A stretch of DNA of 64,000 bases from Clostridia bacterium. Its GTDB lineage: Bacteria; Bacillota; Clostridia; Oscillospirales; CAG-272. Of the stretch, positions 6,657 to 63,392 are shown one piece after another; position 1 is the first letter of the stretch; every line of letters starts with the position of its first letter. A program made the position numbers and the translations under genes. The stretch lies in assembly GCA_017472255.1 (NCBI GenBank), contig JAFUQU010000014.1, positions 357,845 through 421,844 of the forward strand. Reading direction: 5' to 3'. The notes beneath the pieces are model-generated. The model did no database searches. It had not been told where the DNA came from and worked only from the letters and a program-made list of their open reading frames with translations.

Positions 6657-7226
6657 ATGGACAGAATTCTGATCGCAGCCAGTGGAGACAAGGGTGCGGG
6701 CTATATCAGCGAGCTGCTGGATCCATCGGGCGACGTAATGTACGACATTGCGCGCAGCGGTGGCGAGGCCCGACGGATGCTGGGGGCGGACAATTACGAC
6801 ATTTTGATTGTGAATGCGCCCCTGTCTGATGAATTTGGCAATGATCTGGCTGCTGACACGGCGGATACATACGGTGTAGGTGTGATTATACTGGTAAAGG
6901 CGGAAATAGCGGACGAGGTGGCTGACAGGCTGGAGCCTTACGGTGTTTTCGTAGTACAGAAGCCGCTGAGCCGGGCGCTGTTCTATCAGGCGCTGAAGCT
7001 GCTTCATGCTTCCAGACGGCGGATTCTGGGATTGAAAACCGAGAATCTGAATCTTCAGGCAAAGATGGAGGAGGTACGCTTGATTTCCCGCGCCAAGTGT
7101 GCGTTGATACAGTACCTGAACATGACTGAACCGCAGGCGCATCGTTACATTGAGAAGCAGGCGATGGATATGCGTGTGACCCGTCGCGAAATCGCCGAGG
7201 GAATTATCAAAACCTACGAAACGTAG
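6657..7226 (+). CDS. ANTAR-domain antiterminator with pseudo-receiver domain (AmiR/NasT family)
   Basis: C-terminal ANTAR helix pattern (RLISRAKCALIQYLNMTEPQAHRYIEKQAMDMRV); N-terminal receiver-like fold lacking the acidic pocket; directly downstream of glnA. Confidence 0.75.
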   Translation: MDRILIAASGDKGAGYISELLDPSGDVMYDIARSGGEARRMLGADNYDILIVNAPLSDEFGNDLAADTADTYGVGVIILVKAEIADEVADRLEPYGVFVVQKPLSRALFYQALKLLHASRRRILGLKTENLNLQAKMEEVRLISRAKCALIQYLNMTEPQAHRYIEKQAMDMRVTRREIAEGIIKTYET

Positions 7227-7287
7227 AAGGAGCTGCTGCACCTCCGTGCAGCAGCTCGCTCTGTCAATGAAAAGAATGGATATCCGC

Positions 7288-8619
7288 TTATCGCAGCAGG
7301 AGCGCGGCGGCAAGCTGAACGGCTTCGGCGCGGGTCAGGGGCGCGTAGGCGTTGAGAACGCCGTCGGAACCGCGCATAATGCCCGCTTCCATCAGACCGA
7401 ACATTGCGGAGCGTGCCCATGCGGGGATGCTTTCCGCGTCCGCGGGGGCGCTGACGCTCAGAGTATCCGAACCGCGGATGCCGGTGATTCTGGAGAGGAT
7501 GACGGCTGCTTCACAGCGGGTGATCTGATTGTTGGGATAGAAGCGCAGACCGTCCTCCGCCTCCACGCCGCTGATGATGCCGATGGCGTCGGCAGCGGCT
7601 ACGCTGCCTTTATAGGCTTCGGGGATATCGGCGTCATCAGCGAAGCCGGTATTCAATGTGGAGAAGCCGGTATATCCGGCGGCGTTCATGACCAGCGACA
7701 GGAATTCAGCCCGGCTGATACCCTCGTTTGGGTAGAAGTTGGCTGTGCCCTCCACGCCGCCTGCTGTTTCGACGGTCAGCGCCATGCCGGCTTGTTCCAG
7801 CACGCCACTGCGCAGGCAGGTAATCAAAGCGCTTTCTGCCCAGTGACCGTCCATATCGGCGATAACCTCGCCAGCTTCGGGCATATCCACGCGCAGACGG
7901 ACTTTCAGCGTATTGGAGCGTCCGCCGTAAAAGTCAACGGCGCGCACCTCAAAGCTGTCAACGCCCTCGTAATCGTCGAGGGGCGTGTAAACGTAGTAGC
8001 CGCGCTCACGGTCGGTGAGGGTTACGCTGCCGTGGGCAGGCTGAGAAACCAGCTCAAAGCGCACGCTGTCGCCGTCCGGGTCTGCCATTTCGATGCTGCC
8101 CGAGCAGGCTACGCCCGAGTAAGCAAAGACTTCTGCGGCTGATTGGGTGAGGATGGGGGCGCTGTTCACGTAAGTCAGGGCATACAGCGCACATTCATAG
8201 CTGACGCCGCTGCCGGTGGTGAAGCCGAAGGAAGTATCCAGCTCGTCACTGCCGTAGGGGACGAAGCGCAGGGAGGACAGGTTCTTTTTATTGATGGTCT
8301 GTCCTACGGCTACGTCCTGGCTGCCGAGGCGGAGCACGCCCAGCTCACGGTCGGGCAGGGAAGTGATTGTGATTCTGCTCACCGATTCCACGCCCAGCGC
8401 TTCGGCGAAATCGTCGGCGGTAAAGCTGATATCGGTGTTGGCGAGACCGGTTTTGACCATCGGTTCGTCGGCGGCGATGATGGCCAGCGCGGGTGAAAGG
8501 GGAGCGTCCGCTGCCAGTGCCGGGATGGTGAGTGATACAGCCAGCAGGGCGGCGGTAATGGGGATTATGTGTTTCATTGAAGTTACCTCCGTTTGGGATA
8601 TAGGATGATGCTGCACCAC
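7288..8619 (-). CDS. Cell-surface protein with signal peptide, Ig/cadherin-like region and three C-terminal SLH domains
   Basis: N-terminal signal peptide (AALLAVSLTIPALA); three SLH repeats (FYPNEGISRAEF, FYPNNQITRCEAAVIL, LTRAEAVQLAA). Confidence 0.75.
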   Translation of the reverse strand: MVQHHPISQTEVTSMKHIIPITAALLAVSLTIPALAADAPLSPALAIIAADEPMVKTGLANTDISFTADDFAEALGVESVSRITITSLPDRELGVLRLGSQDVAVGQTINKKNLSSLRFVPYGSDELDTSFGFTTGSGVSYECALYALTYVNSAPILTQSAAEVFAYSGVACSGSIEMADPDGDSVRFELVSQPAHGSVTLTDRERGYYVYTPLDDYEGVDSFEVRAVDFYGGRSNTLKVRLRVDMPEAGEVIADMDGHWAESALITCLRSGVLEQAGMALTVETAGGVEGTANFYPNEGISRAEFLSLVMNAAGYTGFSTLNTGFADDADIPEAYKGSVAAADAIGIISGVEAEDGLRFYPNNQITRCEAAVILSRITGIRGSDTLSVSAPADAESIPAWARSAMFGLMEAGIMRGSDGVLNAYAPLTRAEAVQLAAALLLR

Positions 8620-50902: not shown

Positions 50903-52324
50903 TCAATTGCTTTTCGTTTTTAATTTTTCCCGCACAACCAGCCGCTTCAGCGCCTTTCCGTTAAAGGGAATCAGCGGATAAAGATAATTGCGCTTGCCGT
51001 TTACCGTTTTGTTGGTGGCGGCGAAGGTAAGATTCAGCACCAGCCCGCCGATATAGCCCCACAGTCCGAACAGCGCCGTTGTGGCCAGCAGAAGCATTCG
51101 CATGAGCTTGAACGCATAGCCCAGCTCGTAGCTGGACTGGGAAAAGTTCGCGATGGCGACGAAGGCCATGTAGACGATGACCTCCGGCACGAACCAGCCG
51201 ATCTGCACCGCGAAATCGCCCAGAATCAAACCGCCTACCACGCCGAAAGTATTGTTCAGCGAATTCGGCGTGTTCATGGACGCCAGCTTCAGCCCATCCA
51301 GCGCAAATTCGATGATGAACAGCTGGACGATGATGGGAAGATTGCATTCCGAATCCACGAAGATGAAATTCAGCCAATCGGGAACCCAGTTCGGATGGGT
51401 AATCAGCAGATACCACGTGGGAGTCAGCAGCATGGTCATCAGGAAGACGGCGTAGCGCAGCAGCCGCAGATAGGAGCCGATCAGCGGCGGAAAGTAATAA
51501 TCATCGGTTTCCTGCATGAAATCGAAGATGCAGGTGGGCAGAATCATCGCTTCCGGCGACGTGTCGCAGAGGATGATGACGCCGCCCTCCAGCAGATGAG
51601 CCGCCGCTGAATCCGGACGCTCGGTATAGCGGAATTTGGGAAAGGGATTGTACCACCGCCGTTTGATTAGACATTCGGCAAGGCTCTGCTGTCCCAGCGT
51701 CAGGGCGTCCACCTTGATCGCTTTGATTTTGGACAGCAGGGTCTGCACATACTCCTTGTCAGCTTTGCCGTCGATGTAGGCCACGACCACATCGTTTTTT
51801 GCCGTCTCGCCAACGACAATTCGTTCGAAGGTGAGCCGAGGATCGCGGATGCGGCGGCGAATGAGGGTGGAGTTCTGCTTGATTGTTTCCACGAAGCTGT
51901 CGTGGGCGCCCCGAAGAACCCGGTCGTTTTCCGACTGCTGGATGCCCCGTGTGGGATAGCTGCGCACATCGATGATGATGCCCGCGGCGCCCAGCGAATC
52001 CATGATTACGCCCATGGTGCCCGACATGACGGCGTAAACGAACTGATCGAAATCCGTAACTACCGAAACCTCGGTGTAGGGCAGATGGCGGGCGGCAAAC
52101 TGCTTTGCGTCCTGCGCGTTTTCCACCGTCTCAAGCTGTGCCAGATAGATGAACAGCCGCTCCAGAACGTCGCTTTTGACAAAGCTGTCGATGTAGTAGA
52201 AGTGCGCCGAGTGACCGCCGAAAATCTGCTCGCGGCTGATGAAATCGTAATTTTTTCCGATACCAAAAAGGGTATCGAGGGTTTTTATGTTTTTCTGATA
52301 GCTTTCGCTGAATGTCTGCGACAT
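50903..52324 (-). CDS. GerA-family spore germination protein (GerAA / SpoVAF-like), orphan
   Basis: GerA family N-terminal domain and C-terminal 4-5 TM domain; no adjacent GerAB/GerAC genes; alternative start at 52339. Confidence 0.7.
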   Translation of the reverse strand: MSQTFSESYQKNIKTLDTLFGIGKNYDFISREQIFGGHSAHFYYIDSFVKSDVLERLFIYLAQLETVENAQDAKQFAARHLPYTEVSVVTDFDQFVYAVMSGTMGVIMDSLGAAGIIIDVRSYPTRGIQQSENDRVLRGAHDSFVETIKQNSTLIRRRIRDPRLTFERIVVGETAKNDVVVAYIDGKADKEYVQTLLSKIKAIKVDALTLGQQSLAECLIKRRWYNPFPKFRYTERPDSAAAHLLEGGVIILCDTSPEAMILPTCIFDFMQETDDYYFPPLIGSYLRLLRYAVFLMTMLLTPTWYLLITHPNWVPDWLNFIFVDSECNLPIIVQLFIIEFALDGLKLASMNTPNSLNNTFGVVGGLILGDFAVQIGWFVPEVIVYMAFVAIANFSQSSYELGYAFKLMRMLLLATTALFGLWGYIGGLVLNLTFAATNKTVNGKRNYLYPLIPFNGKALKRLVVREKLKTKSN

Positions 52325-52382
52325 AGGATTACCTGCCAATCTTGGTTGATGTCCATAGTATCGGCAGAATTTGCAGAAATTA

Positions 52383-52946
52383 TTACAATCCGAAAAATTG
52401 CAGGATGCCGTTGTAAATGCCCAGCGCGAACAAATCAGGCTCCCCGGACATCAGCGCCGCGTCGCCGGGATTGGTGATGTAGCCCATTTCAATGAGGGTG
52501 GCGGGCATATTCGTCCTCCGCAGGACATAAAGCGACGGGCGGGCGAAGGTGCCGCGATTTTCAAGACCGGTGATCAGGCTCAGCTGATCGACGATGTTTT
52601 CGCCCAGCCGGAAGCCCTCGGTTCCGGTGCGGTAAGCGTAGGCTTCCACGCCGGACGCGGAGGGATTGGAGAAGGCGTTGGTGTGCAGGCTGATGAAATA
52701 GTCCGCGCCCCATTCGTTGGCGGCGTTGACCCGGGCGGCAAGGCTGGATGCATTGGACGTTCCCAGCTGCTCGGTGGGCGAATTGCGGGAGAGCATGACC
52801 TCAAAGTTTCCGTTGGCGCGCAGCAGATCGGCAAGAATAACACCTATATTGTAGGTGATGTCCTGTTCGCGCAGACCGTTGCCCTCGGCGCCCGCGTTGG
52901 GATTGGTGGGATTGTGCCCCTGATCGATGAAAATTTTAATTGCCAT
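52383..52946 (-). CDS. N-acetylmuramoyl-L-alanine amidase, Amidase_3 family (CwlD-like)
   Basis: IFIDQGHNP ... GADYFISLHTNA ... metal-binding motifs; 187 aa, catalytic domain only. Confidence 0.75.
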   Translation of the reverse strand: MAIKIFIDQGHNPTNPNAGAEGNGLREQDITYNIGVILADLLRANGNFEVMLSRNSPTEQLGTSNASSLAARVNAANEWGADYFISLHTNAFSNPSASGVEAYAYRTGTEGFRLGENIVDQLSLITGLENRGTFARPSLYVLRRTNMPATLIEMGYITNPGDAALMSGEPDLFALGIYNGILQFFGL

Positions 52947-53869: not shown

Positions 53870-55702
53870 ATGTGTGGATTTGTCGGCTTCACCGGGAAGC
53901 TGGAAAAGCAAAAGGAAATCCTGAATAACATGATGGCGCGGATTGTCCATCGCGGCCCTGATTCGGCGGGAGAATTCCTCGGCGAGGATGTGGCGCTGGG
54001 CTTCCGGCGTCTGAGCATCATCGACCTTGACGGCGGCTCGCAGCCCATGTACAATGAGGACGGCAGCGTAGTCATCGTTTTCAACGGTGAGATATACAAT
54101 TTTATGTCCCTTCGCGAGGAGCTTTCGGCGGCGGGACATACCTTCAGAACCCGGTCGGACACCGAAACGCTGGTGCATGGCTGGGAAGAATGGGGCGAAA
54201 AGCTCGCATCGAAGCTGCGCGGGATGTTCGCCTTCCTGCTTTACGATAAAAAGAGCGGCGTCCTTTACGGCGCCCGGGATTACTTCGGCATCAAGCCGTA
54301 CTACTACTACCGCACCGCAGAGGGAAACTACCTTTTCGGCTCGGAAATCAAGTCCTTCCTCGAGCATCCGGGCTTTGACAAGCGGCTCAACAAAAAGGCG
54401 CTGCGCCCCTATCTGACCTTCCAGTATTCGTCGCTGGACGAGACCTTCTTCGAGGGCGTGTTCAAGCTGCCTCCGGCGCATTATTTCACGCTGAAGGACG
54501 GAGCGATGACAGTCACTCGTTACTGGGACGCCGACTTCACCGAGAAGCCGGGCGACTTCGACGCATATGTCAACGACATCGACAAAACGGTCAATGAGTC
54601 CGTGGCGGCGCATAAGATCAGCGATGTGAAGGTGGGTGCGTTTCTTTCGGGCGGCGTGGATTCGTCCTATATCACCGCCTGCCTGATGCCCGACAAGACC
54701 TTCTCCGTGGGCTTCGATTACCATAAATTTAACGAAACCAACTACGCAAAGGAACTGTCTGACCGTCTGGGCATCGAAAATTACCGCAAGCTGATTACCG
54801 CCGACGAATGCTTTGACGCTTTTGCTGACATTCAGTATCATATGGACGAGCCGCAGTCCAACCCCTCCAGCGTACCGCTCTATTTTCTCGCAAAGCTTGC
54901 CAGAGAGCAGGTTACAGTGGTGCTGTCCGGCGAGGGCGCGGATGAAATCTATGCCGGCTACGAGTGGTACGACGAGACGCCCATGATGCAGAAATACAAG
55001 AAAATCCCGCAGCCCCTGCGTATCGCGGCGGCGGGTGTGGCAAAGCGGCTGCCCTACTTTAAGGGACACGATTTCATCATCAAGTCCAGCGGACGCCCGG
55101 AGGATTACTTCATCGGTCAGGCTATGGTCTGGGCGGAGAAGGACGCGCTTCGGGTGCTCAAGCCCGCGTTTCGCTGCGGACCTTCCACGAAGGAGGTCAC
55201 GGCGCCGATTTATGCCCGGGTGAAGGACAAATCGGAGCTTGACAAGAAGCAGTACCTCGACCTGAATCTCTGGCTGCCGGGGGATATTCTGCTCAAAGCC
55301 GACAAAATGAGCATGGCAAGCTCGCTGGAGCTTCGCGTGCCCTTCCTCGACCGTGTGGTCATGGAACAGGCGCAGGCGCTGCCTCACGAGTACAAGATCA
55401 ACGGCAAAAATACCAAGTACATCTTCCGCAAGGCCGCCAACAAAACCCTCCCCGACGAGTGGGCTGACCGCAAGAAGATGGGCTTCCCCGTGCCCATCCG
55501 CTACTGGCTGAAGGAAGAAAAATATTACAACATCGTCAAAGGCTATTTCACCAGCGACTATGCCGCCGAGTTCTTTGACACCGACGCGCTCGTCGCCCTG
55601 CTTGACGAGCACCGCGCCGACAAGGCCAACAACGGACGCCGCATCTGGACGGTTTTCACCTTCCTTGTCTGGTACAAACGATTCTTCATCGACGAAACAT
55701 AA
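53870..55702 (+). CDS. Asparagine synthase (glutamine-hydrolysing) family amidotransferase (AsnB / AsnH-like)
   Basis: N-terminal MCGFVGF Ntn-GATase; SGGVDSS PP-loop; 610 aa. Confidence 0.85.
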   Translation: MCGFVGFTGKLEKQKEILNNMMARIVHRGPDSAGEFLGEDVALGFRRLSIIDLDGGSQPMYNEDGSVVIVFNGEIYNFMSLREELSAAGHTFRTRSDTETLVHGWEEWGEKLASKLRGMFAFLLYDKKSGVLYGARDYFGIKPYYYYRTAEGNYLFGSEIKSFLEHPGFDKRLNKKALRPYLTFQYSSLDETFFEGVFKLPPAHYFTLKDGAMTVTRYWDADFTEKPGDFDAYVNDIDKTVNESVAAHKISDVKVGAFLSGGVDSSYITACLMPDKTFSVGFDYHKFNETNYAKELSDRLGIENYRKLITADECFDAFADIQYHMDEPQSNPSSVPLYFLAKLAREQVTVVLSGEGADEIYAGYEWYDETPMMQKYKKIPQPLRIAAAGVAKRLPYFKGHDFIIKSSGRPEDYFIGQAMVWAEKDALRVLKPAFRCGPSTKEVTAPIYARVKDKSELDKKQYLDLNLWLPGDILLKADKMSMASSLELRVPFLDRVVMEQAQALPHEYKINGKNTKYIFRKAANKTLPDEWADRKKMGFPVPIRYWLKEEKYYNIVKGYFTSDYAAEFFDTDALVALLDEHRADKANNGRRIWTVFTFLVWYKRFFIDET

Positions 55703-55744: not shown

Positions 55745-56980
55745 ATGGAAAAACGCAACATCATCCCGGTTCTGCTGGGCGCTGACCTGAACTGCTACAG
55801 TGTGGCGCGCGCCTTTCACGAACAGTACGGGGTAAAATCCTATGCGTTCGGACGCTATGCCATCGGCGCGTCCAAATATACACGAATTCTGAAATTCAAC
55901 GTGGTCGAAAAGCTGGACGATCCCGACGTGATGGTTGAGACGCTGCTTGACTTCGCGGCAAAGCATGAGGGCGCGTCCCTTATTGCCTTTGGCTGCACCG
56001 ACGATTACGCCGCCATGCTCATCCATAACGGCGACCGCCTCCGTCCCCGCTATATCGTGCCCTACATCGGACCGGAGCTGTTCGAGCGGCTGGCGTACAA
56101 GGCCAGCTTCTACGAGGACTGCGACCGCTGCGGCATTCTCTATCCCAAAACGGTGGTTGTCACCCCCGAAACCAATCTGGACGAGACGCTGGATGAGGCG
56201 GCGCTGGGCTTCTCCTATCCGATCATCGTCAAGCCCTCGGCCAGCGCGGTTTACTGGAAGTATCCCTTCGACGGCATGAAGAAGGTCTACACCGCCGCGT
56301 CCAAGGGCGAAGCCGAGATCATTATCCGCCGCATCTATGGCTCGGGCTACCCGGAGAAGATTATTCTTCAGGATATGATTCCCGGCGACGATTCCAGAAT
56401 GCGGGTGCTCACCGCCTATTCCGATCAGAACGGCAAGGTGAAGATGATGTGCCTCGGTCATGTGCTGCTGGAGGAACACACGCCCAAGGGTCTGGGCAAT
56501 CACTGTGCCATCATTACCGAGCAGGATCGCCCGCTGATGGAGAAGTTCAAGGCTTATTTGGAGGGGCTGCATTTTGTGGGCTACTCCAATTTCGACATCA
56601 AGTATGACGAGCGTGACAATACCTTCCGCGCCTTTGAAATCAATCTGCGGCTGGGACGAAGCAACAACTATGTGACCTCTGCGGGCTGCAACGTGGCGCG
56701 CTATATTGTGGAGGACTTTCTTGGCGAAGGCTTGCCGGAGGAGACCTATTTCTGCGACAATGAGATACTCTGGCACAGCGTGCCTAAAAAGGTGGTCTAC
56801 GAATACTGCCGCGACAAGGCTATGGCTGATCGAGCAAAAGAACTGGCGAAGACCGGCAAGGCGCATCCGGCGCTGTGGTATAGCCCGGACACCTTCTTCA
56901 ACCCCATGCGCACCTTCTTCCTGACCATGCACGGCTACAACCATTTCGGAAAATTCAAGAAGTATTATGGCAAAGAGTAA
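55745..56980 (+). CDS. ATP-grasp family ligase (candidate D-aspartate ligase, Aslfm/AslA-like)
   Basis: PreATP-grasp + ATP-grasp fold; 3' end overlaps an aspartate racemase gene, with AsnB-family and murE genes flanking. Confidence 0.55.
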   Translation: MEKRNIIPVLLGADLNCYSVARAFHEQYGVKSYAFGRYAIGASKYTRILKFNVVEKLDDPDVMVETLLDFAAKHEGASLIAFGCTDDYAAMLIHNGDRLRPRYIVPYIGPELFERLAYKASFYEDCDRCGILYPKTVVVTPETNLDETLDEAALGFSYPIIVKPSASAVYWKYPFDGMKKVYTAASKGEAEIIIRRIYGSGYPEKIILQDMIPGDDSRMRVLTAYSDQNGKVKMMCLGHVLLEEHTPKGLGNHCAIITEQDRPLMEKFKAYLEGLHFVGYSNFDIKYDERDNTFRAFEINLRLGRSNNYVTSAGCNVARYIVEDFLGEGLPEETYFCDNEILWHSVPKKVVYEYCRDKAMADRAKELAKTGKAHPALWYSPDTFFNPMRTFFLTMHGYNHFGKFKKYYGKE

Positions 56981-57674
56981 AACGCTTGGCATTCTGGGCG
57001 GTCTGGGACCGATGTCCACCGTCTACTTCTACGAGCTGCTGACCTCGCTGACCCGCGCGTCGTGCGATCAGGAGCATATCGATATCGTCATCTCCAGCCG
57101 CGCCACCACTCCCGACCGCACCCGCTATATTTTAGGGCAGTCGGATGAAAATCCGCTGGACGCCATGATTCCCGACGCGAAGCGTTTGATCGCCTTCGGC
57201 GCGGAACTGATCGCCATTCCCTGCAATACGGCGCACTATTTCTATGACGCGCTGGCCGCCGAAGTGGACGTTCCCATTCTCAACATCATCGAGGAAGCGG
57301 TGCGGACGATGAAAGGAGACGGCGTGTCCCGGTTCGGACTGCTGGCGACCGACGGTACCGTGCGCTCCGAAACCTATCAGCGCTACTGCTCCACCCACGG
57401 CATCGAATGCGTCGTTCCCGACGACGCCAGACAGGCTCGGGTGATGGACATTATCTACGGCTCCATCAAGCAGAACAAGCCGGTGGACACCGAGAGCTTC
57501 TATGAAATCGCCCACACGATGCGCTCCTGGGGCTGTGAGCGGCTGGTGCTGGGCTGCACCGAGCTGTCGCTTATCAAGAAAAACGAGGGGCTTGGCGCTT
57601 ATTACGTGGATCCGCTGGAGTGTCTGGCGCTGTCGTCCATCCACGCCTGCGGAAAGCAGTCAATATTTGACTGA
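56967..57674 (+). CDS. Aspartate racemase (Asp/Glu/hydantoin racemase family)
   Basis: Two conserved Cys regions (ASCDQEH..., IPCNTAHYF, LGCTELS); 235 aa. Confidence 0.8.
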   Translation: MAKSKTLGILGGLGPMSTVYFYELLTSLTRASCDQEHIDIVISSRATTPDRTRYILGQSDENPLDAMIPDAKRLIAFGAELIAIPCNTAHYFYDALAAEVDVPILNIIEEAVRTMKGDGVSRFGLLATDGTVRSETYQRYCSTHGIECVVPDDARQARVMDIIYGSIKQNKPVDTESFYEIAHTMRSWGCERLVLGCTELSLIKKNEGLGAYYVDPLECLALSSIHACGKQSIFD

Positions 57675-57701: not shown

Positions 57702-59195
57702 ATGCTGCTGACACACATTCTCGCCGATCTGAACTATACATCCGATACCCCTGCCGAAAAGCTGGGACGTATCAATATTGCCGACATCGTTTATGATTCC
57801 CGCAAAGCGGTGCCCGGGACGATGTTCATCTGCCTCATCGGCGCGGTGTCCGACGGACACAATTACGCAGAGGGCGCTTATCAGAGCGGCTGCCGGGTCT
57901 TTCTGGTGCAGCGAAAGCTGGAACTGCCCGCCGACGCGGTGCAGATTCTGGTGGAAGATACCCGCACGTCCATGGCATTGGCATCGGCGGCGCTGTTTGA
58001 ATATCCGGCGCGCTCGCTGCTCATCATCGGCGTTACCGGCACCAAGGGAAAAACCACCGTTGCGTCGCTGGTTGCCGATATTCTCAGCGAGGGCGGCATC
58101 AACACCGCTTACATCGGTACTACCGGCATCCTGATCAACGGCGTGCGCACACCTACGGTGAACACCACCCCCGAAAGCTACGAACTGCACAAAGCCTTCC
58201 GCAAAATGGTGGAATCGGGCGTGTCCTGCTGCGTCATGGAGGTGTCCAGTCAGGCGGTCTATATGCGCCGCATCACCGGCATTCACTTTCACATCGGCGT
58301 GTTCACTAACCTCTCCCCCGATCACATCGGCGGTGTGGAGCATCCCACCTTCGAGCATTATATGAGCTGCAAGGCGGAACTGTTCAAACAGTGCCGCTAC
58401 GGTATTTTCAACGCGGACGATTCGCATTTCACCGATATGGTGAAAAACGCCCGGTCGATCAACACCACCTTCGGGCTGGAAGCAAACGGTGTCCGCGATA
58501 TCAGTGCCCGGGATATGCGCCCGTGGAAGCGAGGAAATCTGCTGGGAGAACGGTTTATCTGCAAATCCGTGCTGGGCGAAAGCGAAATCGAGCTGCGTAT
58601 GCCCGGCGAGTTTAACGTTTACAACGCGCTGGCAGCCATTGCCGTGGCGCAGCGGATGGGCATCCGGGAGAGCGTGATCAAAAGTGCCCTTGCCAAAGCT
58701 ACGGTGCGCGGACGCTTCGAAATCGTGGACGCGCTGCCCGACGCGGTGACGATTATCGATTACGCCCACAATGCCGTCTCCATGCGTGCCGCGCTGGAGA
58801 CGATTCGCAAGTACCAGCCCAAACGGCTGGTGGTGCTTTTTGGCTCGGTGGGCGGACGAACCCAGCTGCGCCGGGGCGAGCTGGGGGAAATCGCCGCCAC
58901 TATGGCGGATTTCTGCATCATCACCAGCGATAACCCCAATTTTGAGCCGCCGGAGGACATTATTCACGACATCGAGGAAAGCGTGGCCGCCACCTCCTGT
59001 CCCTATGTTACCTTTGTCGATCGCCGGGAGGCTGTACGTTATGCAATCGGTCACGCGCTGGCGGGCGACTGCATCCTGTTCGCCGGAAAGGGGCATGAGC
59101 AGTATCAGCTGATCGAGGGCGAATACTGCCATTACGACGAGCGGGAGGAAATTCTCGCGGCTGCGGCTGCGGTTCGCGCGGCGGTCAATCAATAA
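57702..59195 (+). CDS. murE: UDP-N-acetylmuramoyl-L-alanyl-D-glutamate ligase, Lys-type signature (DNPN instead of DNPR)
   Basis: Mur ligase domains (GVTGTKGKTT P-loop); DNPN at residues 410-413 (nt 58929-58940). Confidence 0.8.
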   Translation: MLLTHILADLNYTSDTPAEKLGRINIADIVYDSRKAVPGTMFICLIGAVSDGHNYAEGAYQSGCRVFLVQRKLELPADAVQILVEDTRTSMALASAALFEYPARSLLIIGVTGTKGKTTVASLVADILSEGGINTAYIGTTGILINGVRTPTVNTTPESYELHKAFRKMVESGVSCCVMEVSSQAVYMRRITGIHFHIGVFTNLSPDHIGGVEHPTFEHYMSCKAELFKQCRYGIFNADDSHFTDMVKNARSINTTFGLEANGVRDISARDMRPWKRGNLLGERFICKSVLGESEIELRMPGEFNVYNALAAIAVAQRMGIRESVIKSALAKATVRGRFEIVDALPDAVTIIDYAHNAVSMRAALETIRKYQPKRLVVLFGSVGGRTQLRRGELGEIAATMADFCIITSDNPNFEPPEDIIHDIEESVAATSCPYVTFVDRREAVRYAIGHALAGDCILFAGKGHEQYQLIEGEYCHYDEREEILAAAAAVRAAVNQ

Positions 59196-59218: not shown

Positions 59219-60694
59219 ATGAAGAAACGGCTTCTCTCCCTGCTTCTTGCATCGCTCCTTGCTCTCACAGCCTGCGGTGGGTCGGCTTCGCCCGATGAAA
59301 CGCAGGAAAGCAGAACCTACACCCACGACGAGCGCATGGAAATCCTTGACGATACCGCGTTAAAGCTGCCTGTAGATTTCTACGAAACGGAGGCGAAGGC
59401 TCGCTATTTCGAAACGCTGGATATTATCCGGCAGGAATATTTTGAGCCGATGTCCGTAGCCGATCAGTGCTTTACCGATTTTCTGGAGGCGAAAGCGGCG
59501 CTGACCTGCTCCTATCGCAGCGACTATCCGGTGATCGTCATCACCGCCCCGAACAATCTGGGCAAAACCTACGCAGACGGGTATGTGACGGTCATTGAAG
59601 ACGGCGAGATCATCGAGAGCGATGTGACCATCAAGGTTCGCGGCAACAGCACCGCCGGTGCGCCCAAGAAGCCGTACAACATTAAATTCCCCGAATCGGT
59701 GTCCCTGCTGGGCATGGAGGAGGGCAAAAAGTGGTCGCTGCTGGCGAATATGTTCGACAAAACCATGCTGCGCAATAAGCTGGCGCTGGATTTTGCCGGA
59801 GAGATGGGGCTGGCGCACACCTCCCAGTCGGAGTTCTGCGAGGTCTGGTTCAACGGAAAGTATCAGGGCAACTACCTGCTCTGCGAGCCGGTTTCGGACG
59901 GCAAGAACCGCTTGGATCTGGACACGTCGGGTAACGAGTTTATTCTGGAGATCACGCCCTTCGGCGGCTGGAGCTTCAAGTCGGGCGCTGGGGTGGAGAT
60001 TCTCTACGATTCGCCCGAAGATCCCACCGAGGCTCAGAAGACATATCTGAACAAACTGCTGGATTTGGCTGAGGCTGCCATGGAAAGCGGCGATTTGAAG
60101 GAATGTGCGAAGTATATCGATGTGCAGTCGTTCATCGATCTCTACTGCATGATGGAGCTGTTCAAGGATGTGGACGGCTACTGGAAATCGCTCTATTTCT
60201 ACGTGAAAGACGATAAGCTTTGCGCCGGACCTGCGTGGGATTTTGACCTGTCCTGCGGCAACGTGAGCAAAACCTACGTGGAGGATAATTACTTCAACTA
60301 CCACAATTCCAACGGTTACGGCGATAAGTCCAACGACAGCACCCATGGTTTACGCATGGCTCACGGCTGGTGGGCGATTCTGCTGGAATCGGAGGAGTTC
60401 GCGTCGATGGTGCGTGAGCGGTATCTGGAATTGCAGTCGCTGATTGTCAATCTGTACGAGGACAACGAGCTGGGCGGAAACCGCATCGATGCGCTGATCG
60501 AGGAAAACGGCGCGTCCTTTAACCGGGAGTATACGAAGGACGACGGCTCGGGCTATGGCGCGGGTTGGAGCATCAGCGAGATCTATTCGATCTATGCGGG
60601 CGAGTCTATGGGCGATTATGAGGATAACGTGGAGTTTCTTCGGGAGTGGCTGCGTGACCGCAACGCCTGGCTTCTTGAAAATATAGGAAAATAA
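59219..60694 (+). CDS. CotH-family lipoprotein
   Basis: Lipobox LTACGG; CotH kinase-fold motifs (NIKFPESVSLLG..., VWFNGKYQGNYLLCEPV). Confidence 0.65.
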   Translation: MKKRLLSLLLASLLALTACGGSASPDETQESRTYTHDERMEILDDTALKLPVDFYETEAKARYFETLDIIRQEYFEPMSVADQCFTDFLEAKAALTCSYRSDYPVIVITAPNNLGKTYADGYVTVIEDGEIIESDVTIKVRGNSTAGAPKKPYNIKFPESVSLLGMEEGKKWSLLANMFDKTMLRNKLALDFAGEMGLAHTSQSEFCEVWFNGKYQGNYLLCEPVSDGKNRLDLDTSGNEFILEITPFGGWSFKSGAGVEILYDSPEDPTEAQKTYLNKLLDLAEAAMESGDLKECAKYIDVQSFIDLYCMMELFKDVDGYWKSLYFYVKDDKLCAGPAWDFDLSCGNVSKTYVEDNYFNYHNSNGYGDKSNDSTHGLRMAHGWWAILLESEEFASMVRERYLELQSLIVNLYEDNELGGNRIDALIEENGASFNREYTKDDGSGYGAGWSISEIYSIYAGESMGDYEDNVEFLREWLRDRNAWLLENIGK

Positions 60695-61642: not shown

Positions 61643-61700
61643 TTGACAAATCTGGTTGGTAGTTGTAGACTATAGATACAGGTCGGTAATAACCAACCAA
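61643..61700 (+). promoter_or_regulatory. Promoter (TTGACA-17-TAGACT) overlapping an inverted repeat GGTTGGT..ACCAACC (candidate BlaI-type operator)
   Basis: TTGACA 61643-61648; TAGACT 61666-71; GGTTGGT 61654-60 and ACCAACC about 61692-98. Confidence 0.4.
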
Positions 61701-61720: not shown

Positions 61721-62083
61721 ATGGAAAACCTGAAACTCTGTGAAAGCGATTACCGCTTCATGTGCGTGATCTGGGACAACGAGCCGCTGACGTCCCGGCG
61801 TCTGGTGGAACTGTGCGCCGGACGTCTTGGCTGGAAGAAGCCCACCACCTACACCACGCTGAAAAAGCTCTGCGACAAAGGGTTCGCGCAGAACGTGGAC
61901 ACCATCGTCACTTCGCTGATACCACGGGAACGGGTGCAGGCTTACGAAAGCGAGCGCTTTGTGGAACGCGCCTTCGACGGTTCGCTGCCCGGATTTTTAG
62001 CGTCCTTCCTCGGCGGCAAGACGATTTCCGACGAGGAAGCCGAAGCGCTGAAGGCGCTGATCGACGCGCATCGGGAGGATTGA
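61721..62083 (+). CDS. BlaI/MecI/CopY-family transcriptional repressor
   Basis: Winged-helix N-terminus (RFMCVIWDNEPLTSRRLVE..KPTTYTTLKKLCDKGF) plus dimerisation C-terminus; 120 aa. Confidence 0.8.
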   Translation: MENLKLCESDYRFMCVIWDNEPLTSRRLVELCAGRLGWKKPTTYTTLKKLCDKGFAQNVDTIVTSLIPRERVQAYESERFVERAFDGSLPGFLASFLGGKTISDEEAEALKALIDAHRED

Positions 62084-62084
62084 C

Positions 62085-63392
62085 ATGGAAGGGGGATTTG
62101 TGACGATTCTCAACATGAGCATCGCCGCGTCATGGGTGATATTGGCGATACTGGCGGTGCGGCTGGCGCTTGCGCGAGCGCCGAAGAAGTTTTCCTATTG
62201 GCTGTGGATTGCGGCGGGCTTCCGGCTCTGCTGCCCGGTGGGAGTGAAGCTGCCGTTCAGCTTGTTCAACCTGCTTCGTACCGATGATATGACTTTCGTG
62301 CCTGCCGACCTCGGCATGATGGCAGAACCGCAGGTTTCCACCGGCTCTTTGGCGGCGGATTCGCTGATCAACCCGCTGCTTCCGGCGGCGACGCCGCAGT
62401 ACAGTGCCAATCCGATGCAGATTTGGCTATTCGCCGGCGCAATCATCTGGATTGCCGGTGCGGCGGCGATATTGCTTTACGGCGTGATTTCTTACGGGTT
62501 GACGGCTTATCGGATGCGGACTGCGGTAAAGCTGGAGGGAAATGTCTGGCAGTCCGATCGGGTGCGATCACCCTTTGTCATGGGGATATGGAAGCCGCGC
62601 ATTTTTGTTCCGTTTGGGCTGAATGACGAGACGATGCGCTATGTGCTGGCGCATGAACGGTTCCACATCCGGCATGGCGACCATGCTGTTCGGCTGTTTT
62701 CCTACGGATTGTTGGCGCTCCACTGGTTCAATCCCCTCTGCTGGCTGGCGTATAGGCTGATGGGGTGGGACATGGAGCTGCGCTGCGACGAGGCGGTTCT
62801 GGCATCTGGCGAAAGCAGGACGGCATACAGCGAGACGCTGCTGGCACTGGCGGCGAATTCACGGCGGTTTATGCCGGGGCTGTCCGGTTTTGGTGAGACG
62901 GGCGTTCGGGCGCGGATAAAGAACGCGCTGCGCTGGCGTGAGCCGAAGCGCTGGGTCAACGCGGCGGCAGCCGTCGCGGTGGTTGCCGTGGTGACGGCGT
63001 GCGCATCCGACCCGGCGGTGGAGGCGCTGGAGACGTTGGATTCCTGCTTTGTCCATATCGAGGGGCGGAGCTTCACCGCGCAGGCGGCGAAGGATTTTAA
63101 CTTCGACTACGATAAGCTGCCCGACTTGATTGTTGACGGCGAAGGGACGCTGGTTATCAATGTCTCCGTTTCCGGCGATACGCTGACTGTGGGCGAGGAC
63201 TACTATCAGGCGTTGGGGACGAATGGCACTACGATCAAGAGGGAGACCTTTACGCTGAATCGGGACGATGACGGTCTGTTCCGGCTTCCTGTGAAGCGGC
63301 GAGGTACGTCATCGGAGGATGAGTACGCGGTTTATTACATCGTGGGCGACGACGGAAAATACTCGGTTCGGGTGCTGTTTCCCGCTTCATAA
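62085..63392 (+). CDS. BlaR1-like M56-family membrane metalloprotease with non-PBP extracellular C-terminal domain
   Basis: 4-TM N-domain; HEXXH (AHERFHIRHGDH); C-terminal about 150 aa unlike the penicillin-binding sensor domain. Confidence 0.7.
   Translation: MEGGFVTILNMSIAASWVILAILAVRLALARAPKKFSYWLWIAAGFRLCCPVGVKLPFSLFNLLRTDDMTFVPADLGMMAEPQVSTGSLAADSLINPLLPAATPQYSANPMQIWLFAGAIIWIAGAAAILLYGVISYGLTAYRMRTAVKLEGNVWQSDRVRSPFVMGIWKPRIFVPFGLNDETMRYVLAHERFHIRHGDHAVRLFSYGLLALHWFNPLCWLAYRLMGWDMELRCDEAVLASGESRTAYSETLLALAANSRRFMPGLSGFGETGVRARIKNALRWREPKRWVNAAAAVAVVAVVTACASDPAVEALETLDSCFVHIEGRSFTAQAAKDFNFDYDKLPDLIVDGEGTLVINVSVSGDTLTVGEDYYQALGTNGTTIKRETFTLNRDDDGLFRLPVKRRGTSSEDEYAVYYIVGDDGKYSVRVLFPAS

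What the first reader, a model, noticed from the sequence alone, without database searches (positions are those of the whole stretch)
58929..58940. MurE carries DNPN instead of the DAP-specific DNPR motif
DAP-adding MurE enzymes conserve DNPR, where the Arg contacts the distal carboxylate of mDAP. Lys-adding enzymes show D(D/N)P(N/A). This MurE reads S-D-N-P-N-F at residues 409-414. This points to L-Lys at position 3 of the stem peptide, which is the acceptor needed for a D-Asp cross-bridge. It independently supports the locus interpretation above.
Basis: partly seen in the sequence, partly recalled or inferred. Interest (0 to 1): 0.55.

Follow-up and report, generated by a model that had tools for sequence, protein, structure and literature searches.

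The report
Lysine-type MurE in D-aspartate cassette
This uncultured gut clostridium has a cell-wall enzyme (MurE) that lacks the arginine needed to grip diaminopimelate and sits in one operon with the enzymes that make a D-aspartate cross-bridge, so its wall is probably the ordinary lysine–D-aspartate type, although public databases name the enzyme a diaminopimelate ligase.

Summary
Bases 58929-58940 encode D410-N411-P412-N413 of a 497-aa MurE (57702-59195, +). This tetrad aligns column for column with DNPR of DAP-adding MurEs and with DNPA of the S. aureus lysine ligase.

All other ligand-contact residues are kept; only the Arg that binds the distal carboxylate of mDAP is replaced.

In 82 related MurE genes:
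- 36 of 48 non-Arg genes lie directly downstream of an ATP-grasp ligase and aspartate racemase, against 0 of 34 Arg-type genes.
- 18 of 34 Arg-type genes lie directly downstream of dapF, against 0 of 48 non-Arg genes.

The ATP-grasp protein is a full-length homologue (37-38% identity) of lactobacillal ligases that sit beside a racemase or asnB.

Best reading: asnB-asl-racD-murE is one cassette that builds an L-Lys stem peptide carrying a D-Asp/D-isoAsn branch.

Caveats:
- The motif marks specificity but does not prove it.
- It cannot separate L-Lys from L-Orn.
- A second DAP-type murE elsewhere in this spore-former's genome could not be tested. One relative carries both types side by side.

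This is a new member of a known kind. NCBI names this protein a DAP ligase, which is probably wrong. Interest is modest.

The parts
57702..59195 (+). [quoted passage not shown]
   Evidence: It scores 384 bits on TIGR01085 and matches the Pfam Mur_ligase M, C and N-terminal domains. The best solved relative is the S. aureus Lys ligase 4C12, E = 5e-73. NCBI holds the identical protein as MBQ8509260.1, named DAP ligase.
58929..58940 (+). DNPN tetrad (D410-N413), the finding itself. It is the position of DNPR in DAP ligases, with Arg replaced by Asn.
   Evidence: Searches give the sequence. Searches give the column-for-column alignment to DNPR, DNPA, DDPA and DDPG.
58842..58862 (+). GSVGGRT loop (residues 381-387). 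It holds the conserved Arg386 (E. coli R389, S. aureus R383 by my count on the alignment). It also carries a second signature of the non-Arg clade: V/I383 instead of G, and G385 instead of N/D.
   Evidence: Column 383 is G in 34 of 34 Arg-type genes and V/I in 48 of 48 non-Arg genes. The same co-variation holds in the 148 nearest cluster representatives: 75 G+Arg, 65 V/I+non-Arg and 8 exceptions.
59085..59099 (+). GKGHE (residues 462-466). E466 aligns with S. aureus E460 and E. coli E468, which together with D410 bind the side-chain amino group.
   Evidence: The alignment is. The roles of the residues are from PMC3829189.
58029..58058 (+). ATP-binding P-loop GVTGTKGKTT (residues 110-119).
   Evidence: The consensus TGTXGKT is described in PMC3829189.
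56967..57674 (+). Aspartate/amino-acid racemase (RacD-like), 235 aa. It overlaps the end of the ATP-grasp gene by 14 nt and ends 28 nt before murE.
   Evidence: It scores 213 bits on TIGR00035 asp_race (cut-off 93) and matches Pfam Asp_Glu_race. It is conserved directly upstream of murE in 36 loci.
55745..56980 (+). ATP-grasp carboxylate-amine ligase, 411 aa, predicted D-aspartate ligase (Asl/AslA-like).
   Evidence: No curated family hit is above cut-off. It is 36.7% identical over 98% of its length to the L. curvatus ligase that sits beside a racemase. It is 38.2% identical to the L. crispatus protein beside asnB, and 35.1% to the L. fermentum protein. JGI names a 55% identical homologue 'D-aspartate ligase'.
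53870..55702 (+). Glutamine-dependent asparagine-synthase-family amidotransferase, 610 aa, predicted AsnH-like amidation of the D-Asp branch.
   Evidence: It scores 532 bits on TIGR01536 and matches Pfam GATase_7 and Asn_synthase. It is 46% identical to the L. crispatus asnB that lies directly upstream of the Asl homologue. It is conserved in synteny in 22 related loci. The function of AsnH is from PMC4155827.
59219..60694 (+). CotH-family protein with a lipoprotein signal (LTAC), 24 nt downstream of murE. It is probably co-transcribed, and its role in this system is unknown.
   Evidence: Pfam CotH 148 bits. No terminator-like site lies between the genes. It is conserved downstream of murE in only a few relatives (L005, L016, L027).

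Best explanation
The gene is a functional MurE. [quoted passage not shown]

It is the last biosynthetic gene of a four-gene cassette, asnB-asl-racD-murE:
- The racemase makes D-Asp.
- The AsnB-type amidotransferase converts part or all of the branch to D-isoAsn.

The predicted wall is the A4-alpha L-Lys-D-Asp(Asn) chemotype known from Lactococcus, Enterococcus faecium and many lactobacilli.

Shown here: the sequence, the homology of the tetrad, retention of all other contact residues, gene order, and the context statistics.
Inferred: the substrate of each enzyme and the wall chemistry.
For: DNPN aligns with DNPR and DNPA. D410, N411, R386 and E466 are kept, and only the carboxylate-binding Arg is lost.

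The best solved relative is the S. aureus L-Lys ligase.

Reference genes read here give DNPR for mDAP, LL-DAP and lanthionine organisms. They give DNPA, DDPA and DDPG for Lys organisms.

Context: 36 of 48 non-Arg murE lie less than 1.5 kb downstream of ATP-grasp/racemase, against 0 of 34 Arg-type (Fisher p = 3e-13, not corrected for phylogeny). 18 of 34 Arg-type murE lie directly downstream of dapF, against 0 of 48 non-Arg.

Another non-Arg murE (L043, DNPD) is followed by a FemAB-family branch-peptide transferase.

The ATP-grasp protein is a full-length homologue of lactobacillal ligases that sit beside a racemase or asnB. That is the aslA-racD and asnH arrangement described in PMC4155827.

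The genes are 22-43 nt apart or overlapping, with no terminator between them.

Peptostreptococcus species carry asl-racD-murE with DNPD. From memory, the type species has an L-Lys-D-Asp wall.
Against: No enzyme of this clade has been assayed.

The motif is not sufficient to set specificity. S. aureus A409R gained no mDAP activity, and its Lys selectivity rests on pocket charge and on the cytoplasmic Lys pool.

The curated Lys-ligase model NF010628 is not reached (356 bits, cut-off 536). The DAP-ligase equivalog NF001126 is exceeded (434 bits, cut-off 373).

All non-Arg genes form one clade, so the context counts are not independent events.

A Subdoligranulum-labelled assembly has the ATP-grasp/racemase/asnB cluster, but only a DNPR murE was found for it. 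The ligase cluster is therefore not strictly tied to a non-Arg MurE.
Confidence: 0.7

Rival explanations
1. The enzyme adds L-ornithine rather than L-lysine, giving an A4-beta L-Orn-D-Asp wall (as in Limosilactobacillus fermentum). Alternatively it accepts both.
For: The loss of Arg only says that the substrate has no distal carboxylate.

Collinsella aerofaciens MurE reads EDPA and has asnB directly upstream. From memory, its wall is Orn-D-Asp.

L. fermentum, named as an L-Orn species in PMC4155827, has a 35% identical homologue of the ATP-grasp ligase.

B. adolescentis mixes Lys and Orn under a beta-Asp/isoAsn bridge.

S. aureus MurE accepts Orn weakly.
Against: Lys is by far the commoner partner of D-Asp bridges.

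The Orn enzymes read here (Deinococcus, Collinsella) diverge from DNPx at the first or second position (EADH, EDPA). The window keeps D-N-P as S. aureus does.

Peptostreptococcus, in the same MurE clade, is recalled to be Lys-type.
Confidence: 0.12
2. The Lys-type murE is an accessory copy. A DAP-type murE elsewhere in the genome makes a second kind of peptidoglycan, for example spore cortex with mDAP and a vegetative wall with Lys-D-Asp. From memory, this is reported for Lysinibacillus sphaericus. This reading does not contradict the predicted Lys specificity. It would mean that position 3 is not uniformly Lys.
For: The organism looks like a spore former. It has a GerA germination protein (455 bits) and a small amidase whose best match is CwlD, though below cut-off.

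Locus L033, a Peptostreptococcaceae MAG, carries both types within 6 kb. The order is DNPR murE (660 bits on NF001126), a DctA/GltP-type transporter, ATP-grasp, racemase, then DNPD murE.

murE here lies outside any dcw cluster, and the window holds no murF, mraY or murD.
Against: No second Mur ligase is present in the 64-kb window, nor within 8 kb of murE in 27 Flemingiibacterium-like loci.

No genome among the 80 loci contributed both a non-Arg and an Arg-type locus, apart from L033. This is weak evidence, because the scan used peptides specific to the query.
Confidence: 0.35
3. The database name is right: the enzyme adds meso-DAP despite lacking the Arg, and the neighbouring AsnB amidates mDAP, as AsnB1 does in L. 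plantarum.
For: NF001126, a DAP-ligase equivalog, is exceeded, and NCBI names the protein accordingly.

In L. plantarum, asnB1 co-localises with a DAP-type murE.

The motif alone does not dictate specificity.
Against: Every authenticated DAP enzyme has DNPR, and the Arg binds the D-centre carboxylate.

The same NCBI name is also given to the MurE of L. curvatus, whose motif is DDPG. From memory, L. curvatus is a Lys-D-Asp species, so the name is not discriminating.

dapF linkage is confined to Arg-type genes.

A racemase and an Asl homologue lie between asnB and murE.
Confidence: 0.05

Closest known systems
Staphylococcus aureus MurE, L-lysine ligase (EC 6.3.2.7; PDB 4C12/4C13)
   Same: It is the best solved relative (E = 5e-73). 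It has the same three-domain Mur ligase architecture. The Asp of the tetrad and the Glu of KG(H/R)E that bind the epsilon-amino group are kept. The fourth residue is not Arg: DNPA there, DNPN here.
   Different: Identity is only about 33%. In the NJ tree it falls outside the clostridial non-Arg clade. The window protein does not reach the curated Lys-ligase model NF010628 (356 bits, cut-off 536). The loop before the conserved Arg reads GSVGGRT here and GMAGERD there.
meso-DAP-adding MurE (E. coli 1E8C, M. tuberculosis 2WTZ; NCBIfam NF001126)
   Same: Overall sequence and all catalytic motifs match. D, N and P of the tetrad, the Arg aligned with E. coli R389 and the Glu aligned with E468 are kept. 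The score is above the NF001126 cut-off.
   Different: The Arg that binds the distal carboxylate of mDAP is replaced by Asn. It is never linked to dapF, unlike 18 of the 34 Arg-type relatives.
AslA/Aslfm-RacD-AsnH D-aspartate cross-bridge pathway of Lactococcus lactis, Enterococcus faecium and lactobacilli
   Same: An ATP-grasp ligase, an aspartate racemase and an AsnB-family amidotransferase are all present. The ligase and racemase are adjacent, as in L. lactis and L. curvatus. asnB is adjacent to the ligase, as in L. crispatus.
   Different: Here murE itself belongs to the operon. In L. curvatus it lies 11 kb away. The ligase is only 35-38% identical to the lactobacillal ones. The host is an uncultured spore-forming clostridium, not a lactic acid bacterium.
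Thermotoga maritima MurE (PDB 4BUB), L/D-lysine ligase with a DDPR motif
   Same: It is a homologous enzyme that adds lysine (molecule name).
   Different: It keeps the Arg. This shows that the motif rule is asymmetric: presence of Arg does not prove DAP, whereas no characterised DAP enzyme lacks it.
Lysinibacillus sphaericus two-enzyme system: Lys-adding enzyme in vegetative cells, mDAP-adding enzyme during sporulation (recalled from memory; Tipper and co-workers, 1970s)
   Same: It is a spore former predicted to have a Lys-D-Asp vegetative wall. A relative (L033) carries both MurE types.
   Different: A second murE has not been shown for this genome.

Membership tests
MurE (UDP-MurNAc-tripeptide synthetase, TIGR01085) | Three Mur ligase domains and a score above the family cut-off. 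| tested here: met
   TIGR01085 scores 384 bits (cut-off 257). Pfam Mur_ligase, Mur_ligase_M and Mur_ligase_C all match.
MurE (UDP-MurNAc-tripeptide synthetase, TIGR01085) | Catalytic motifs: P-loop, the conserved His of DH, the carbamylated Lys, and DYAH. | tested here: met
   GVTGTKGKTT 110-119, DH 207-208, K224 aligned with S. aureus K219, and DYAH 353-356.
meso-DAP-adding MurE (EC 6.3.2.13) | DNPR tetrad, whose Arg binds the D-centre carboxylate of mDAP. | tested here: not met
   DNPN at the homologous column. The role of the Arg is from PMC3829189 and PMC3681970.
meso-DAP-adding MurE (EC 6.3.2.13) | Score above the NCBIfam DAP-ligase equivalog cut-off. | tested here: met
   NF001126 scores 434 bits against a cut-off of 373. 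The model is not discriminating, because the DNPD copy in L033 also passes at 472 bits.
meso-DAP-adding MurE (EC 6.3.2.13) | mDAP-adding activity in vitro, or mDAP in the wall. | not testable with these tools
   This needs an enzyme assay or muropeptide analysis.
L-lysine-adding MurE (EC 6.3.2.7) | The fourth residue of the tetrad is not Arg. The published pattern is D(D/N)P(N/A). | tested here: met
   DNPN here, compared with S. aureus DNPA, E. faecalis DDPA and L. curvatus DDPG.
L-lysine-adding MurE (EC 6.3.2.7) | The Asp of the tetrad and the Glu of the KGxE loop are available for the epsilon-amino group. | tested here: met
   D410 and E466 align with S. aureus D406 and E460.
L-lysine-adding MurE (EC 6.3.2.7) | Membership of the curated Lys-ligase equivalog NF010628 (Bacilli type). 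| tested here: not met
   356.6 bits against a cut-off of 536. The S. aureus enzyme lies outside the clade in the tree. The protein works like a Lys ligase but is not a member of that sequence family.
L-lysine-adding MurE (EC 6.3.2.7) | L-Lys preferred over L-Orn and mDAP in vitro. | not testable with these tools
   No enzyme of this clade has been assayed. Sequence does not separate Lys from Orn.
D-aspartate cross-bridge system (Asl/RacD/AsnH) | An ATP-grasp ligase homologous to AslA/Aslfm. | tested here: inconclusive
   It is a full-length homologue, 35-38% identical, of lactobacillal ligases that sit beside a racemase or asnB. JGI names a 55% identical homologue 'D-aspartate ligase'. The sequences of the characterised L. 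lactis and E. faecium enzymes were not available for direct comparison, and no curated model exists.
D-aspartate cross-bridge system (Asl/RacD/AsnH) | An aspartate racemase encoded next to the ligase. | tested here: met
   TIGR00035 scores 213 bits. The gene overlaps the ligase gene by 14 nt.
D-aspartate cross-bridge system (Asl/RacD/AsnH) | An AsnB-family amidotransferase for the D-Asp alpha-carboxyl. | tested here: inconclusive
   A gene of the family is present and adjacent (TIGR01536, 532 bits). It is 46% identical to the L. crispatus asnB beside the Asl homologue. Sequence does not separate AsnH from AsnB1-type mDAP amidases.
L-ornithine-adding MurE | No agreed sequence signature. The comparators read here are EDPA (Collinsella) and EADH (Deinococcus). 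| tested here: inconclusive
   The window keeps D-N-P, unlike both comparators. The chemotypes of those organisms are recalled from memory and were not verified here.

The most novel reading that the evidence does not exclude
asnB-asl-racD-murE (or its core, asl-racD-murE) may be a portable 'chemotype-switch' cassette. It would carry its own stem-peptide ligase together with the branch-forming enzymes, and would have spread horizontally among Clostridia (Flemingiibacterium-like Oscillospirales, Peptostreptococcaceae). In spore formers it would coexist with a DAP-type MurE, so that one cell makes two chemically different peptidoglycans: a Lys-D-Asp vegetative wall and an mDAP cortex. L033, with both murE types flanking the cassette, would be the intermediate or dual state.
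Probability: 0.3. Interest if true: 0.55.

Novelty: new member of a known kind. Interest (0 to 1): 0.3.

Why it matters
If the prediction holds, a widespread group of uncultured gut clostridia has a Lys-D-Asp/isoAsn wall rather than the mDAP wall usually assumed for this part of the Clostridia. The group comprises Flemingiibacterium-like MAGs from ruminants, chickens and humans.

Wall type decides three things:
- which innate immune sensor the host uses (NOD1 senses DAP-type muropeptides);
- which endolysins and lytic enzymes act on these bacteria;
- what muropeptides they release in the gut.

It also exposes a systematic annotation error. The NCBIfam DAP-ligase equivalog accepts this clade, so this protein (MBQ8509260.1) is named a DAP ligase. 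About half of the 148 nearest cluster representatives also lack the Arg (70 of 148). Chemotype predictions made from product names alone would therefore be wrong for this clade.

The contrast in gene context gives a simple genomic rule for predicting position 3 in Clostridia: dapF-murE for Arg-type genes, and racD/asl-murE for non-Arg genes.

Tried and rejected
1. Second murE. tblastn of the window found no other Mur ligase. Gene calls for the whole window and about 5 kb beyond its end show no dcw genes. The question stays open.

2. Literature on wall chemistry. Searches for the Peptostreptococcus peptidoglycan type, for the L. sphaericus cortex and vegetative-wall precedent, and for Collinsella found nothing usable. 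Schleifer & Kandler 1972 is not held. Those chemotypes are therefore marked as recalled from memory.

3. L. fermentum MurE. I looked for an Orn-D-Asp comparator in L. fermentum, but its murE is not on the fragment present in the plasmid collection.

4. Curated families for the ATP-grasp protein. NCBIfam and Pfam gave only sub-threshold hits, so identity rests on homology to lactobacillal genes and on context.

5. Operon boundaries. The promoter and terminator scan gave nothing convincing inside the cluster. Co-transcription is inferred from spacing only.

6. Independent gains. I considered treating the context association as many independent events. I rejected this because the NJ tree puts all non-Arg MurEs in one clade. 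The Fisher p-value is therefore descriptive only.

7. Structure prediction. I considered it and did not run it, because the tools return no residue-level pocket geometry that would add to the alignment.
Full report
**Observation.** The + strand ORF 57702-59195 encodes a 497-aa protein. Bases 58929-58940 read GAT AAC CCC AAT, which is D410 N411 P412 N413, flanked by S409 and F414.

The protein is a genuine MurE. It scores 384 bits on TIGR01085 (cut-off 257) and matches the Pfam Mur_ligase, Mur_ligase_M and Mur_ligase_C domains. It has an intact P-loop, the DH motif, the Lys that aligns with the carbamylated Lys of S. aureus, and DYAH. A ribosome-binding site, AAAGGAG, precedes the ATG.

**Homology of the tetrad.** In phmmer alignments to solved structures, DNPN falls in the same column as:
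- DNPA of the S. aureus L-Lys ligase (4C12, the best hit, E = 5e-73);
- DNPR of M. tuberculosis (2WTZ) and of 8G6P;
- DDPR of T. maritima (4BUB);
- DNPR of the fusion protein 8F5D.

I also read real genes from organisms of known wall type. They are present in the plasmid collection as mis-filed chromosome fragments.

| Organism | Tetrad |
|---|---|
| E. coli, B. velezensis, a Streptomyces, Fusobacterium vincentii, Subdoligranulum dcw-cluster murE | DNPR |
| S. aureus | DNPA |
| E. faecalis | DDPA |
| Latilactobacillus curvatus | DDPG |
| Vescimonas | DDPD |
| Collinsella aerofaciens | EDPA |
| Two Deinococcus species | divergent (EADH) |

**What the literature says about the motif.** Ruane et al. 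[quoted passage not shown] The Asp, together with Glu468, binds the amino group.
- In S. aureus only Asp406 and Glu460 touch the Lys, and Ala409 makes no contact.
- The A409R mutant gained no mDAP activity.
- Lys selectivity is attributed to an acidic pocket and a high cytoplasmic Lys pool.
- Orn is accepted with 400-fold lower specificity.

PMC3681970 states that DNPR is conserved in authenticated DAP enzymes. In the window protein, D410, N411, E466 and the Arg of the GGR loop (R386) are all kept, and the only changed contact residue is the Arg. The motif is thus a good negative marker: without the Arg there is no grip on a distal carboxylate. It is not a proven positive determinant for Lys.

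**Surroundings.** Upstream on the same strand lie three genes:
- an AsnB-family amidotransferase (53870-55702);
- an ATP-grasp protein (55745-56980);
- an aspartate racemase (56967-57674), which overlaps the ATP-grasp gene by 14 nt and ends 28 nt before murE.

Downstream lie a CotH-family lipoprotein and a prephenate dehydrogenase. The gaps there are 22-24 nt and there is no terminator-like site between the genes.

The ATP-grasp protein hits no curated family. It is a full-length homologue of three lactobacillal proteins:
- the L. curvatus 'carboxylate-amine ligase', which sits beside an amino-acid racemase (36.7% identity);
- the L. crispatus protein directly downstream of asnB (38.2%);
- the L. 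fermentum protein (35.1%).

This is the aslA-racD and asnH arrangement reviewed in PMC4155827. A 55% identical homologue is named 'D-aspartate ligase' by JGI.

**Relatives.** The exact protein occurs in a ruminant-gut MAG: ENA ERZ28654512 scaffold_23, and NCBI MBQ8509260.1. The nearest genomes, at 67-79% identity, are Candidatus Flemingiibacterium MAGs.

Across 82 MurE genes in the fetched loci, 48 lack the Arg (DNPD 31, DNPN 10, DNPG 2, DNPA 1, EDPG 3, DDPG 1) and 34 have it (DNPR 27, DNSR 7). The window's Asn is a minority variant. Asp, a charge reversal relative to Arg, is the commonest residue.

In a neighbour-joining tree all non-Arg genes form one clade, and S. aureus, M. tuberculosis and T. 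maritima fall outside it. The clade has a second signature in the loop before the conserved Arg: V/I383 instead of Gly, and G385 instead of Asn.

Of the 148 nearest 50%-identity cluster representatives in 1.8 billion proteins, 70 lack the Arg (D 36, G 22, N 7, others 5). The clade is therefore large and diverse.

**Context test.**
- 36 of 48 non-Arg murE genes lie within 1.5 kb downstream of the ATP-grasp/racemase pair, against 0 of 34 Arg-type genes.
- 18 of 34 Arg-type genes lie directly downstream of dapF, the epimerase that makes meso-DAP, against 0 of 48 non-Arg genes.
- One non-Arg gene without the ligase (L043) is followed by a FemAB-family transferase, another enzyme that builds branches on Lys-type precursors.
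- Peptostreptococcus species carry asl-racD-murE with DNPD. From memory, the type species has an L-Lys-D-Asp wall, but I could not retrieve a source.

Because the non-Arg genes are one clade, these counts describe a lineage rather than many independent events. The mutually exclusive partners (a D-Asp supply versus an mDAP supply) are nevertheless what the substrate assignment predicts.

**Mechanism proposed.**
1. [quoted passage not shown]
2. The racemase supplies D-Asp.
3. The ATP-grasp ligase activates D-Asp as beta-aspartyl phosphate and links it to the epsilon-amino group of Lys in the nucleotide precursor.
4. The AsnB homologue amidates the alpha-carboxyl to give D-isoAsn.

These steps follow PMC4155827. 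The sequence, gene order and homology are shown here; every substrate is inferred.

**Limits and rivals.**

*L-Orn cannot be excluded.* The rule only says that the substrate has no distal carboxylate. Collinsella (EDPA, with asnB directly upstream of murE) is, from memory, an Orn-D-Asp organism. L. fermentum is named as an L-Orn species in PMC4155827. B. adolescentis mixes Lys and Orn under a beta-Asp/isoAsn bridge.

*A second DAP-type murE remains possible.* There is none in the window, nor within 8 kb of murE in 27 related loci. The organism looks like a spore former (GerA, 455 bits; a CwlD-like amidase below cut-off). murE lies outside any dcw cluster. Locus L033 from a Peptostreptococcaceae MAG carries, in order, a DNPR murE, a DctA/GltP-type transporter, the ATP-grasp ligase, the racemase and a DNPD murE. 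From memory, Lysinibacillus sphaericus uses a Lys enzyme for vegetative walls and an mDAP enzyme for cortex. I could not reach the rest of this MAG with the tools.

*The database name is unlikely to be right.* The NCBIfam equivalog NF001126 is exceeded (434 bits, cut-off 373), while the Lys-ligase model NF010628 is not reached (356 bits, cut-off 536). The model is not discriminating, however: the DNPD copy in L033 also passes it. The DDPG MurE of L. curvatus, from memory a Lys-D-Asp species, is also annotated as a DAP ligase in GenBank.

*The ligase cluster is not strictly tied to a non-Arg MurE.* A Subdoligranulum-labelled assembly has ATP-grasp/racemase/asnB without murE beside it, and only a DNPR murE followed by murF was found for it.

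**Comparison and verdict.** Functionally the gene behaves like a Lys-type MurE feeding an Asl/RacD/AsnH pathway. By sequence it is not a member of the Bacilli Lys-ligase family. It belongs to a separate clostridial non-Arg clade that is sister to dapF-linked DAP-type genes.

This is a new member of a known kind of system in an uncultured lineage, and the inclusion of murE in the cassette is a minor variation. Interest is modest (0.3). The practical value lies in correcting an annotation and in the dapF-versus-racD context rule.

Noticed in passing
window 57702-59195; L091 16915-18456: NCBI names this exact protein (MBQ8509260.1) a 2,6-diaminopimelate ligase. The NCBIfam DAP equivalog NF001126 accepts it (434 bits, cut-off 373). 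The DDPG MurE of L. curvatus, from memory a Lys-D-Asp species, carries the same name. Product names are therefore not a reliable guide to position 3 for these genes.
   Followed up: yes
L033 3273-9506: A Peptostreptococcaceae MAG (labelled Romboutsia) has two murE genes 3.3 kb apart. A DNPR copy (660 bits on NF001126) and a DNPD copy flank a DctA/GltP-type dicarboxylate/aspartate transporter, the ATP-grasp ligase and the racemase.
   Followed up: partly
L046, L059 and 16 other loci, about 7100-8000 (gene directly upstream of murE): In 18 of 34 Arg-type (DNPR/DNSR) relatives, murE is immediately preceded by dapF (diaminopimelate epimerase). This is never seen for the 48 non-Arg genes. It is a simple context rule for predicting DAP versus non-DAP walls.
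   Followed up: yes
L088 12001-15875 and L101 8001-10561: An assembly labelled Subdoligranulum variabile has an ATP-grasp (55% identity) - racemase (62%) - asnB (68%) cluster with no murE beside it. The only murE found for that assembly is DNPR and is followed by murF. Either D-Asp is attached to an mDAP-type stem there, or the assembly or its labelling is incomplete.
   Followed up: partly
L043 7866-10803: A DNPD murE in a Clostridia MAG is directly followed by a FemAB-family aminoacyl-tRNA-dependent transferase. This suggests that the non-Arg clade is combined with different kinds of cross-bridge.
   Followed up: partly
window 58842-58862 (residues 381-387): A second clade signature accompanies the loss of Arg. 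The loop reads G-S-V-G-G-R-T, where Arg-type relatives have G-x-G-G-N-R-D. V/I383 tracks a non-Arg fourth residue in 48 of 48 loci and in 65 of 70 non-Arg representatives. Its structural meaning is unknown.
   Followed up: partly
L018 and L021 (murE tetrad region): Two Flemingiibacterium MAGs read DNPD-R, with an Arg one position after the tetrad. Whether this shifted Arg can reach the substrate is unknown.
   Followed up: no
window 59219-60694: A CotH-family protein with a lipoprotein signal peptide (LTAC lipobox) lies 24 nt downstream of murE. It is conserved there in only a few relatives, and its link to wall synthesis is unexplained.
   Followed up: no
window 61721-63392: A BlaI/MecI-type repressor (Penicillinase_R, 120 aa) and a BlaR1-type sensor (Peptidase_M56, 435 aa) lie just downstream of the cassette, behind a promoter-like site at 61643-61671.
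   Followed up: no
window 50903-52946 (- strand); L042 3797-7836; L031 5950-7359: Spore genes lie close to non-Arg murE genes in several genomes. The window has a GerA-family protein and a CwlD-like amidase. L042 has a gerA-gerC-gerB operon directly upstream of murE. L031 has YpeB upstream. This may be coincidence, or a hint of a link with sporulation.
   Followed up: no
L102 1-1858: In Collinsella aerofaciens an asnB gene lies directly upstream of a murE with an EDPA tetrad. This is another asnB-murE pairing outside the Bacillota.
   Followed up: partly
L056 versus L059: A contig labelled Thermoguttaceae (a planctomycete family) carries a murE locus that pairs on zero-length branches with that of Roseburia amylophila in the tree. 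The record is probably contaminated or mislabelled.
   Followed up: no
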